Part shown: piece after piece, positions 934 to 1,414 of the stretch | Position numbering within the stretch: the stretch's first letter is position 1 | Layout of the letters: each line of letters opens with the position of its first letter | Source: a virus | Taxonomy: Duplodnaviria; Heunggongvirae; Uroviricota; Caudoviricetes | Direction: 5' to 3' (one strand) | IMG/VR virus record: IMGVR_UViG_2737471843_000004 | Coordinates: 1 to 27,040 of that record | DNA length: 27,040 bases | The notes under the pieces: model-generated | Databases searched by the model: none | The model's input: the letters and a program-made list of their open reading frames with translations, nothing else | What the model was told of the DNA's origin: nothing | Made by a program: the position numbers and the translations under genes

Positions 934-1068
934 CAATATTTTCCTCCCGCGCTAAAGATCACATAATCTTAACAAGAATGTTAAAAAACGCTGGACTCAG
1001 ACAGTAGAGTGTGTGTTATGGTTGACTATAAAGTCAGCGAAGGAAATGCTTCTGGCTTTTAACAGATA

Positions 1069-1101
1069 AAAAGAGACCGAACACGATTCCTGTTTTCGTC
1101 A
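1069..1101 (-). ncRNA. sdsR: 3'-terminal segment of sRNA SdsR (RyeB), terminator hairpin plus U-tract; probable prophage att core
   Basis: Minus-strand sequence GACGAAAACAGGAATCGTGTTCGGTCTCTTTTT resembles the 3' end of SdsR as I remember it (...ACAGGAAUCGUAUUCGGUCUCUUUUU). Similarity stops upstream of this, as expected if phage DNA replaces the rest. Position next to pphA fits the K-12 arrangement pphA - ryeA/sdsR - yebY. Confidence 0.4.
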
Positions 1102-1414
1102 ACAAACAAGAAACCCTTTTAAAATTAATTTGTTAAGCAAAATTACGCTCATCTTTTAATCCCAAACACGTACCATTGCATATTAATGCATTCAATTAGT
1201 TACCATTTTTTTCGAGTTTTTTAGAGAAAATTTCGGGACTATTTCAGACCAATCCAGGCAGAAATAAGCAATCCCTATATTGAATGATTCCGCAACAATT
1301 ATGTAAAATCACCTCCGGCTGATTTTCATTCAAACTCGCACTATCGAAAGTTCGCCAGCCAGCCGCAGCACGTTCTTGCATACGTGGCTGCGGATTCCGA
1401 CATCTTGCTAATGG

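What the first reader, a model, noticed from the sequence alone, without database searches (positions are those of the whole stretch)
937..1414. Prophage-host junction lies inside the sdsR/ryeA small-RNA locus next to pphA
The host genes yebW and pphA end at 933. At 1069..1101 the minus strand carries a sequence matching the 3' hairpin and U-tract of the sRNA SdsR, but similarity to SdsR as I remember it stops upstream of this. From about 1100 the sequence is AT-rich, ORF-free and runs straight into the phage tail fiber assembly gene. This fits a phage integrating by site-specific recombination within the 3' part of sdsR, leaving a hybrid sRNA. The ryeA/sdsR locus has been reported as an insertion hot spot in enterobacteria.
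Basis: partly seen in the sequence, partly recalled or inferred. Interest (0 to 1): 0.5.

Follow-up and report, generated by a model that had tools for sequence, protein, structure and literature searches.

The report
Prophage junction inside sdsR/ryeA small-RNA locus
This is one end of a prophage that inserted into the terminator hairpin of the E. coli small-RNA gene sdsR (ryeB), an attachment site already described in Salmonella in 2008 and occupied in about 4% of complete E. coli genomes, so it is real but ordinary.

Summary
The window matches E. coli K-12 from yebW/pphA up to base 1098, with one mismatch at 1094, and then diverges. Only the last 31 nt of sdsR (1068-1098, minus strand) and the promoter plus first 69 nt of ryeA (1030-1098, plus strand) remain beside pphA.

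Bases 1099-1384 are the P' arm of a phage attachment site. A phage genome record (PP818812) carries integrase, core and this arm uninterrupted.

Related lysogens carry excisionase, a lambda-type tyrosine integrase and a full-length, regenerated sdsR at the yebY end. Comparing attB, attP and the two junctions places the crossover inside ACGATTCCTGT (1083-1093). This interval contains the 7-nt loop of the sdsR terminator.

The same pphA-side junction occurs in 224 of 5426 complete E. coli genomes, and the integrase-side junction in 228.

The gene left hybrid at this junction is ryeA. The sdsR remnant here is a crippled terminator with no predicted promoter.

Integration into the last 23 bp of ryeB was published by Balbontín et al. 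(2008). The window's own far prophage end lies outside the window and was not recovered. Verdict: real, already known, low interest.

The parts
85..276 (+). yebW (host)
   Evidence: Mapped from the K-12 annotation, where window position = L001 position - 1537.
277..933 (-). pphA (host serine/threonine phosphatase)
   Evidence: K-12 annotation and alignment. Annotated as pphA under the match in all listed E. coli hits.
1017..1022 (+). ryeA -10 hexamer TATGGT; the transcription start maps to A1030
   Evidence: This hexamer is the one replaced by CTCGAG in the ryeA promoter-mutant primers of PMC6610125. The K-12 ryeA start, 1923066, maps to window 1030. Sequence read is identical to K-12.
1030..1098 (+). 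First 69 nt of ryeA, host-derived, now fused to phage DNA (the hybrid ryeA gene)
   Evidence: K-12 ryeA coordinates combined with the breakpoint at 1098/1099. Transcription was not tested.
1068..1098 (-). Last 31 nt of sdsR: U-tract, 3' arm, loop and part of the 5' arm of the terminator. A remnant, not a gene.
   Evidence: K-12 sdsR coordinates and alignment. Rfam 24 bits against a gathering score of 38. No terminator stem in the fold or the scan.
1067..1098 (.). att core: 32 bp shared by attB and attP, with three differences at 1073 (G/A), 1082 (C/T) and 1094 (A/T)
   Evidence: Four-way comparison of K-12 attB, phage attP (L004), the window junction and the integrase-side junction (L003).
1083..1093 (.). 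Interval in which strand exchange must have occurred (ACGATTCCTGT)
   Evidence: The window carries the host allele at 1082 and the phage allele at 1094. All 52 IMG/VR integrase-side junctions and L003 carry the reciprocal pair.
1085..1091 (.). GATTCCT, the 7-nt terminator loop; presumed 7-bp overlap region, flanked by inverted arms 1075-1084 and 1092-1101 as presumed core-type integrase sites
   Evidence: Inference only. It rests on analogy with the lambda Int family and on the crossover interval. Cleavage sites were not mapped.
1099..1384 (.). Phage P' arm of the attachment site and the adjoining non-coding phage end
   Evidence: 91% identical to PP818812 next to its integrase and core. Adjacent to pphA in 224 of 5426 E. 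coli genomes and in many IMG/VR contigs.
1211..1247 (+). Candidate arm-type integrase binding sites (TTCGAG...AAATTTCGGGAC...CTATTTCAG, spaced about 10-11 bp)
   Evidence: They form a repeat family with the P-arm repeats TTCGAGTAAATTTCGGGGAATTTCGGG. The Salmonella-type attP has CGAGG/CGAAC versions in both arms. The motif alone is not significant in the window: 1 match against 0.43 expected.
1359..1392 (.). Conserved hairpin (CCGCAGC...GCTGCGG) just downstream of the tail-fibre assembly gene; function unknown
   Evidence: A 13-bp perfect inverted repeat in PP818812, with two compensatory pair changes between that record and the window. Fold z-scores are unremarkable.
1415..1828 (-). Putative tail-fibre assembly gene, the last gene of the phage late cluster, co-oriented with pphA
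   Evidence: ORF listed. Weak matches to PHROG tail-fibre assembly families; no Pfam hit.
1828..2808 (-). Tail-fibre protein gene
   Evidence: PHROG tail-fibre families at 1.8e-64; Pfam Gly_rich_2.

Best explanation
Bases 1067-1098 are the hybrid attachment site (B-O-P') at the pphA-proximal end of a prophage of roughly 40 kb. The prophage entered the chromosome by integrase-mediated site-specific recombination. The partners were a phage attP and the terminator hairpin of the host small-RNA gene sdsR (ryeB), which lies inside the antisense gene ryeA.

Shown: the integrase is a lambda-type tyrosine recombinase with an N-terminal arm-binding domain. It is encoded with an excisionase at the other prophage end, next to yebY. 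Strand exchange happened within ACGATTCCTGT (1083-1093).

Inferred: exchange most likely took place across the 7-bp loop GATTCCT, with the two arms of the terminator stem acting as the inverted core-type binding sites.

Because the phage carries its own copy of the sdsR 3' end, a full-length sdsR is regenerated at the integrase-side junction, with two base changes in its last nucleotides.

What stays at the junction in this window:
- the intact ryeA promoter and the first 69 nt of ryeA, now reading into the phage P' arm;
- a promoterless, weakened remnant of the sdsR terminator between the phage late genes and pphA.

The AT-rich stretch 1099-1384 is the phage P' arm. It probably carries arm-type integrase sites around 1211-1247 (inferred).
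For: - Collinearity with K-12 ends at 1098.
- A phage genome record carries integrase, P arm, core and P' arm uninterrupted. Its P' arm is 91% identical to window 1099-1384.
- attB, attP and the two junction types are exact reciprocal recombinants at three polymorphic positions.
- In lysogen NZ_AP042480 (89% coverage of the window's phage part, 97.3% identity) the prophage spans pphA to yebY. Excisionase and integrase lie next to a full-length sdsR scoring 118 bits.
- The integrase has Pfam Phage_integrase, Phage_int_M and Arm-DNA-bind_1 domains. The neighbouring gene is an Exc-family excisionase.
- All 52 IMG/VR integrase-side junctions have an integrase homologue ending about 130 bp from the core.
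- 20 of 20 such loci scanned hold a complete SdsR.
- Ten IMG/VR contigs carry both junctions. They include the 41.3-kb contig whose pphA side is 99.2% identical to the window.
- In complete E. coli genomes, 224 have the pphA-side junction, 228 the integrase-side junction, and 5189 of 5426 an intact attB.
- The literature reports the same att site, the last 23 bp of ryeB, for phage PhiW104 in Salmonella (PMC7380047; PMC3603311).
Against: - The window stops about 15 kb short of the expected far end. Its source genome was not found: no locus was 100% identical and the species-representative genomes gave no hit. The integrase and second core copy are therefore shown only in relatives.
- The exact cleavage positions and the 7-bp overlap are inferred.
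- The arm-type sites are not statistically significant on their own.
- No expression data exist for any of the transcripts discussed.
Confidence: 0.9

Rival explanations
1. One reading: a hybrid SdsR sRNA is made at this junction, with a phage-derived 5' part joined to the host sdsR 3' hairpin and U-tract.
For: The host sdsR 3' arm, loop and U-tract are present on the minus strand at 1068-1098. Phage late genes are co-oriented upstream, so read-through RNA could end here.
Against: - No sigma-70-like promoter is predicted on the minus strand in 1099-1900.
- The sdsR promoter and the 5' 73 nt of the gene (of 104 nt) lie at the other junction, where a complete SdsR is regenerated.
- The hybrid hairpin is not in the predicted fold and is not called as a terminator.
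- Rfam scores the region below threshold.
Confidence: 0.05
2. The junction is genuine, but the element in this strain is a decayed or rearranged remnant. Its integrase end would have been lost or separated, for example by deletion, inversion or a second prophage in tandem, so no simple attL/attR pair exists in this genome.
For: - The far end was not observed.
- Short elements carrying both junctions exist, for example contigs of 15.4 kb and 19.8 kb.
- attP-like junctions occur inside contigs that also carry an integrase-side junction, which suggests tandem arrays.
- 224 pphA-side against 228 integrase-side junctions shows the two ends are not always paired.
Against: The 26 kb of phage sequence in the window is a continuous run of late, lysis and regulatory ORFs. 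It is collinear at 97-98% with full-length prophages and with sequenced phages. Most relatives have both ends.
Confidence: 0.1
3. The resemblance to sdsR is coincidental, or the region is ordinary host intergenic DNA that varies between strains.
For: Rfam hits are below the gathering scores.
Against: - There are 1098 nt of ungapped 99.6% identity to K-12 ending abruptly inside sdsR.
- The downstream sequence is found next to an integrase in a phage genome.
- 5189 of 5426 E. coli genomes have the uninterrupted locus.
Confidence: 0.01

Closest known systems
Phage PhiW104 and other elements at the ryeA/ryeB locus of Salmonella enterica (Balbontín, Figueroa-Bossi, Casadesús and Bossi, J Bacteriol 2008;190:4075; read only through PMC7380047 and PMC3603311)
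   Same: The target is the same: the 3' end of ryeB/sdsR, internal to ryeA. The reported core is the last 23 bp of ryeB, and here the core covers the last 31 bp with the crossover 16-26 bp from the 3' end. The consequence is also the same: ryeB is kept while ryeA is separated from its 5' portion. A Salmonella phage record (OK490361) has a homologous attP and an integrase 72.6% identical.
   Different: The host is E. coli. The phage-side P' arm and the core flank differ (TTTTCGTCAACAAAC here against TTTACGGCAACAATT in the Salmonella type). The primary paper could not be read, so identity to the PhiW104 integrase and its exact core was not checked.
Lambda / HK022 integrase-excisionase attP systems
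   Same: A heterobivalent tyrosine integrase with arm-binding, central and catalytic domains, 41.5% identical to HK022 Int. There is an Exc-family excisionase, int lies next to attP, the arms are AT-rich with repeated candidate arm sites, and the inverted core sequences flank 7 bp.
   Different: The target is an sRNA terminator rather than the intergenic gal-bio site. The arm sites, overlap and host-factor sites are inferred, not mapped.
Integration into the 3' ends of tRNA and tmRNA genes (the general pattern attributed to Williams 2002 in PMC3603311)
   Same: The phage targets a conserved stem-loop with a 7-nt loop at the 3' end of a stable RNA gene. It carries a replacement 3' end, so the gene is regenerated after integration.
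   Different: The RNA is an Hfq-dependent regulatory sRNA with a fully overlapping antisense gene. Regenerating one gene (sdsR) therefore unavoidably splits the other (ryeA) and detaches the downstream gene pphA.

Membership tests
Prophage at the ryeB/sdsR attachment site (Balbontín 2008 type) | The host-phage breakpoint lies within the last roughly 23-31 bp of sdsR | tested here: met
   Identity to K-12 ends at 1098, which is 31 nt from the sdsR 3' end. The crossover is confined to 1083-1093.
Prophage at the ryeB/sdsR attachment site (Balbontín 2008 type) | A direct repeat of the core at the other prophage end, next to an integrase | tested here: inconclusive
   Met in relatives: L003, 52 of 52 IMG/VR integrase-side loci and 10 contigs with both junctions. 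The window's own far end lies outside the window and its genome was not found.
Prophage at the ryeB/sdsR attachment site (Balbontín 2008 type) | An uninterrupted attP (P arm, core, P' arm) in the free phage genome | tested here: met
   PP818812 has integrase, 130 bp, core, then a P' arm 91% identical to window 1099-1384. Further attP-like contigs were found in IMG/VR.
Prophage at the ryeB/sdsR attachment site (Balbontín 2008 type) | sdsR is regenerated and ryeA is separated from its 5' part | tested here: met
   Full-length SdsR model hits at 21 of 21 integrase-side junctions tested. The ryeA promoter and its first 69 nt are at the pphA side in the window.
Prophage at the ryeB/sdsR attachment site (Balbontín 2008 type) | Altered RyeA and RyeB expression in the lysogen | not testable with these tools
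   Reported for Salmonella PhiW104 in PMC7380047. No expression data are available for this strain.
Lambda-type heterobivalent tyrosine integrase system | Catalytic tyrosine-recombinase domain, an N-terminal arm-DNA-binding domain and an excisionase | tested here: met
   In relative L003: PF00589 at 61.6 bits, PF22022 at 41.3, PF09003 at 28.1 (cut-off 22), and PF07825 Exc at 52.2.
Lambda-type heterobivalent tyrosine integrase system | Arm-type binding sites in both the P and P' arms | tested here: inconclusive
   A repeat family is shared by the P arm and the P' arm (window 1211-1247). Variants match between the two arms within the Salmonella-type attP. The motif count in the window is not above chance, and no binding data exist.
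Lambda-type heterobivalent tyrosine integrase system | A 7-bp overlap flanked by inverted core-type sites | tested here: inconclusive
   The 11-bp crossover interval contains the 7-nt loop, flanked by the inverted terminator arms. Cleavage sites were not mapped.
Rfam SdsR_RyeB (RF00111), as a gene at this position | Score at or above the gathering threshold | tested here: not met
   24.0 bits against 38 at 1068-1149 (-). There was no hit in the gathering-threshold scan.
Rfam SraC_RyeA (RF00101), as a gene at this position | Score at or above the gathering threshold | tested here: not met
   28.8 bits against 37 at 1064-1190 (+). The Rfam model starts at the core, so it does not cover the 38 nt of ryeA upstream of it.

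The most novel reading that the evidence does not exclude
Lysogeny at this site rewires a host stress circuit in E. coli.

[quoted passage not shown] In the lysogen it is cut off from that promoter by about 40 kb of prophage. It instead sits directly downstream of, and co-oriented with, the phage late genes, behind a crippled terminator. It would then be silent in the lysogen and expressed on induction.
- sdsR loses the convergent ryeA promoter that normally restrains it, both by transcriptional interference and through RyeA acting as antitoxin. SdsR should therefore rise.
- A promoter-like site in the phage P arm (TTTGCA-16-TACAAT, L003 43182-43209) may supply a weaker substitute antisense transcript.

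The SdsR/RyeA part has been reported for Salmonella. The pphA part has not, as far as the papers read here show.
Probability: 0.3. Interest if true: 0.35.

Novelty: already known. Interest (0 to 1): 0.15.

Why it matters
The finding correctly marks a prophage boundary and its attachment site to within 11 bp, which helps annotation and prophage delimitation. It extends a Salmonella observation to E. coli with population numbers: about 4% of complete genomes are occupied, almost all by one integrase/attP family.

The biology is modest and mostly known. The phage regenerates the sRNA it targets but splits the overlapping antisense gene. In E. coli it also separates pphA from the sdsR promoter reported to drive it. 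That last point is a testable, small-scale regulatory consequence rather than a new kind of system.

Tried and rejected
- Finding the window's own genome. No complete E. coli RefSeq genome covers 1-1500 in one piece; the best match reaches 1403. The junction pattern gave 0 hits in the species-representative genomes. None of the IMG/VR loci is 100% identical to the window. The far end of this prophage therefore could not be read.
- Reading the primary paper. PMC2395037 is not held, so its content is cited only through PMC7380047 and PMC3603311.
- Scanning genome contigs with the integrase protein returned only two close relatives (Shigella flexneri and E. coli). Both matches stop at residue 312 of 358, and neither locus contains the integrase-side junction pattern. 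This was not informative about other species.
- The arm-site motif AATTTCGGG, tested as a statistical signal in the window, gave 1 match against 0.43 expected. I kept it only as an inference from the comparison of the two arms.
- The hairpin at 1359-1392 as an intrinsic terminator. There is no U-tract on either strand, it is not called by the scan, and the z-scores are -1.3 and -0.4. I left it unexplained.
- The idea of a hybrid SdsR gene at this junction was rejected (see the rival explanations).

Full report
**What is in the sequence**

The window opens with host genes. By alignment to K-12 MG1655 (L001), yebW is at 85-276 (+) and pphA at 277-933 (-). Window 1-1098 aligns without gaps to K-12 at 99.6% identity. 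In the pphA-yebY intergenic region the only difference is T1094 against K-12 A. From 1099 the two sequences are unrelated.

In K-12 the 104-nt sdsR gene (minus strand) and the 272-nt ryeA gene (plus strand) overlap in this spacer. Converted to window coordinates, sdsR would run from 1068 upward and ryeA would start at 1030. Two host pieces therefore remain beside pphA:
- the last 31 nt of sdsR (1068-1098);
- the first 69 nt of ryeA (1030-1098), together with the ryeA promoter.

The ryeA -10 hexamer TATGGT at 1017-1022 is the sequence mutated in the promoter-mutant primers of PMC6610125.

Rfam detects both remnants only below threshold: SdsR 24.0 bits against 38, and RyeA 28.8 against 37. There was no hit at gathering level.

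The stretch 1099-1340 has 32.6% G+C against 50.6% for the whole window. It has no ORF longer than 45 aa. It leads into a tail-fibre assembly-like gene at 1415-1828 (-) and a tail-fibre gene at 1828-2808 (-).

**What the phage side is**

A phage genome record, PP818812 (vB_Apl-pPE4), contains an uninterrupted arrangement:
- an integrase gene;
- 130 bp of P arm;
- the sequence TTAAAAAAAGACCGAATACGATTCCTGTTTTCGTCAACAAAC;
- a stretch 91% identical to window 1099-1384;
- tail-fibre genes.

This is an uninterrupted attP. Its integrase is 98% identical to the integrase of E. coli prophages at this locus.

In E. coli OkiPb01676 (NZ_AP042480, L003) the prophage covers 89% of the window's phage part at 97.3% identity. 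It lies between pphA and yebY. At the yebY end it carries an Exc-family excisionase, a tyrosine integrase and then a complete sdsR (118 bits, model positions 1-100).

**The four att sites**

| Site | Sequence |
|---|---|
| attB (K-12) | TAAAAAGAGACCGAACACGATTCCTGTATTCG |
| attP (phage) | TAAAAAAAGACCGAATACGATTCCTGTTTTCG |
| Window junction | TAAAAAGAGACCGAACACGATTCCTGTTTTCG |
| Integrase-side junction | TAAAAAAAGACCGAATACGATTCCTGTATTCG |

The two junctions are exact reciprocal recombinants at the three positions where attB and attP differ (window 1073, 1082, 1094). Strand exchange therefore occurred inside ACGATTCCTGT (1083-1093).

Every E. coli pphA-side junction recovered has the host C at 1082 and the phage T at 1094. 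Every one of the 52 IMG/VR integrase-side junctions has the opposite pair.

The interval contains the 7-nt loop of the sdsR terminator (GATTCCT, 1085-1091). It is flanked by the inverted stem arms at 1075-1084 and 1092-1101. By analogy with lambda-family integrases, I infer that the loop is the overlap region and the arms are the core-type sites. This is inference, not measurement.

**The recombinase and the arms**

The integrase has three Pfam domains: the catalytic Phage_integrase domain, the central domain, and the lambda Arm-DNA-bind_1 domain (28.1 bits, cut-off 22). It is 41.5% identical to HK022 Int.

The P arm carries tandem repeats, TTCGAGTAAATTTCGGGGAATTTCGGG. The P' arm carries related copies at window 1211-1247.

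A Salmonella phage record (OK490361) has an integrase 72.6% identical. Its attP is homologous, with three AATTTCGAGG-type repeats in the P arm and ATATTTCGAACC in the P' arm. The repeat variant thus changes together in both arms. This supports a role as arm-type sites, but the motif is not significant on its own in the window.

**How common it is**

Among 5426 complete E. coli genomes:
- 5189 have the pphA-yebY spacer in one piece;
- 224 have the window-type pphA-side junction;
- 228 have the integrase-side junction.

About 4% are therefore occupied, nearly all by this integrase/attP family.

IMG/VR gave 52 loci with the P' junction and 52 with the integrase-side junction, and ten contigs carry both. 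One of the ten is a 41.3-kb contig whose pphA side is 99.2% identical to the window.

All 52 integrase-side loci encode an integrase homologue ending about 130 bp from the core, at 51-100% identity. All 20 of those scanned contain a complete SdsR.

Two loci have the same P' junction beside a pphA flank only about 82% identical to the window, so another species is also targeted.

**Consequences at this junction**

On the minus strand the sdsR terminator remnant has a phage-derived, imperfect 5' arm:
- Its predicted fold lacks the terminator stem: -9.2 kcal/mol and z -0.9, against -15.8 for K-12 and -16.2 for the regenerated copy.
- The terminator scan finds the K-12 and regenerated hairpins but not this one.
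- No minus-strand promoter is predicted upstream of it.

A hybrid SdsR made here is therefore unlikely.

On the plus strand the ryeA promoter is intact and points into phage DNA, so ryeA is the gene left hybrid. sdsR is regenerated at the far junction. Its last 16-26 nt are phage-derived and carry two substitutions: the stem G•U pair becomes A-U, and the tail UCUCUUUUU becomes UCUUUUUUU.

The review PMC7380047 reports, for PhiW104 in Salmonella, that lysogeny alters the 5' part of ryeA, lowers ryeA transcription and raises ryeB.

PMC6610125 shows that in E. coli pphA is transcribed mainly from the sdsR promoter by read-through, and that ryeA transcription interferes with it. It follows, as inference, that the prophage separates pphA from that promoter and leaves it downstream of the co-oriented phage late genes.

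**Comparison with what is known**

Integration into the last 23 bp of ryeB, internal to ryeA, was described by Balbontín et al. (2008). I could not read the paper itself. Three sources point to it or to the same target:
- PMC7380047 summarises it.
- PMC3603311 cites ryeB as a known phage target and notes that integration hot spots are conserved between Salmonella and E. coli.
- A Citrobacter prophage is named Cfr111.52.RyeB, apparently after this integration target, in PMC10111431.

The finding is therefore a correct rediscovery of a known attachment site, in an E. coli lysogen.

**Limits**

The far end of this particular prophage is not in the window and its genome was not found. Cleavage sites, arm-site binding and all transcript-level statements are inferred.

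**Verdict**

Real, correctly located, mechanistically ordinary and already known.

Noticed in passing
window 25098-25296 (-), with ORFs 24434-25045 (-) and 25316-26122 (-): Rfam gathering-level hits to C4 antisense RNA (66.7 bits), its a1/b1 target (50.5 bits) and isrK (75.5 bits). They sit between a Q-like antiterminator gene and an anti-repressor gene (PHROG 4.6e-93). This looks like a P1/P7-type antisense-controlled anti-repressor module in this prophage.
   Followed up: no
window 1292-1400; hairpin about 1359-1392: This non-coding stretch after the tail-fibre assembly gene is 79-86% identical to intergenic DNA in lambda (24162-24267), HK97 (20942-21040), HK106 and many Stx phages. It contains a hairpin that keeps pairing through two compensatory changes between the window and PP818812. 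There is no U-tract and the fold z-scores are unremarkable. Function unknown.
   Followed up: partly
L004 (PP818812.1, 'Actinobacillus phage vB_Apl-pPE4'): This record is labelled as an Actinobacillus pleuropneumoniae phage. Yet it carries an attP matching the E. coli sdsR terminator and an integrase 98% identical to those of E. coli prophages. The host label looks doubtful.
   Followed up: no
L004 1125-1142 and L005 about 826-845 (P arm of attP): The P arm holds a second, decayed copy of the left half of the core (AAAAAAGACCGGAATACAG against AAAAAAGACCGAATACGA) about 85 bp upstream. It is conserved in both the E. coli-type and the Salmonella-type attP. It could be an extra integrase site or a scar of an older att.
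   Followed up: no
IMG/VR loci L029/L035, L026, L038 and the Salmonella-type L007, L011, L013 and others: Several viral contigs carry an uninterrupted P arm, core and P' arm. One of these contigs (IMGVR_UViG_2744055187_000001; L029 and L085) also has an integrase-side junction. That pattern suggests tandem prophages at this site or assembled circular forms.
   Followed up: partly
window 1385-1414, compared with L002 21438-25377 and L003 2499-4123: In relatives, a Pin-like recombinase gene and an alternative, apparently invertible tail-fibre segment follow the shared P' arm. One relative has an IS200/IS605-TnpB insertion there. The window lacks the recombinase and goes straight into a single tail-fibre assembly gene. 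Similarity between lysogens ends at 1384-1403.
   Followed up: no
L027 and L048 (IMG/VR): These have the same P' junction and core, but the pphA-side flank is only about 82% identical to the window and the sequence just left of the core differs (CATTATCAAACTGG...). The same phage family therefore uses this site in another species, which was not identified.
   Followed up: no
L003 43182-43209 (+), the phage P arm at the integrase-side junction: A sigma-70-like site, TTTGCA-16-TACAAT, points into the core and antisense to the regenerated sdsR. It could be a phage-supplied substitute ryeA promoter. It is a consensus match only: 2 sites found against 1.0 expected in the region.
   Followed up: partly
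L063-L104 (integrase-proximal region of relatives) and L003 41274-41468: The related prophages carry the RalR/RalA type I toxin-antitoxin pair next to xis-int (RalA 206-224 bits), together with Rac-like genes (kil, recE, ydaT). That part of the prophage lies outside the window.
   Followed up: no
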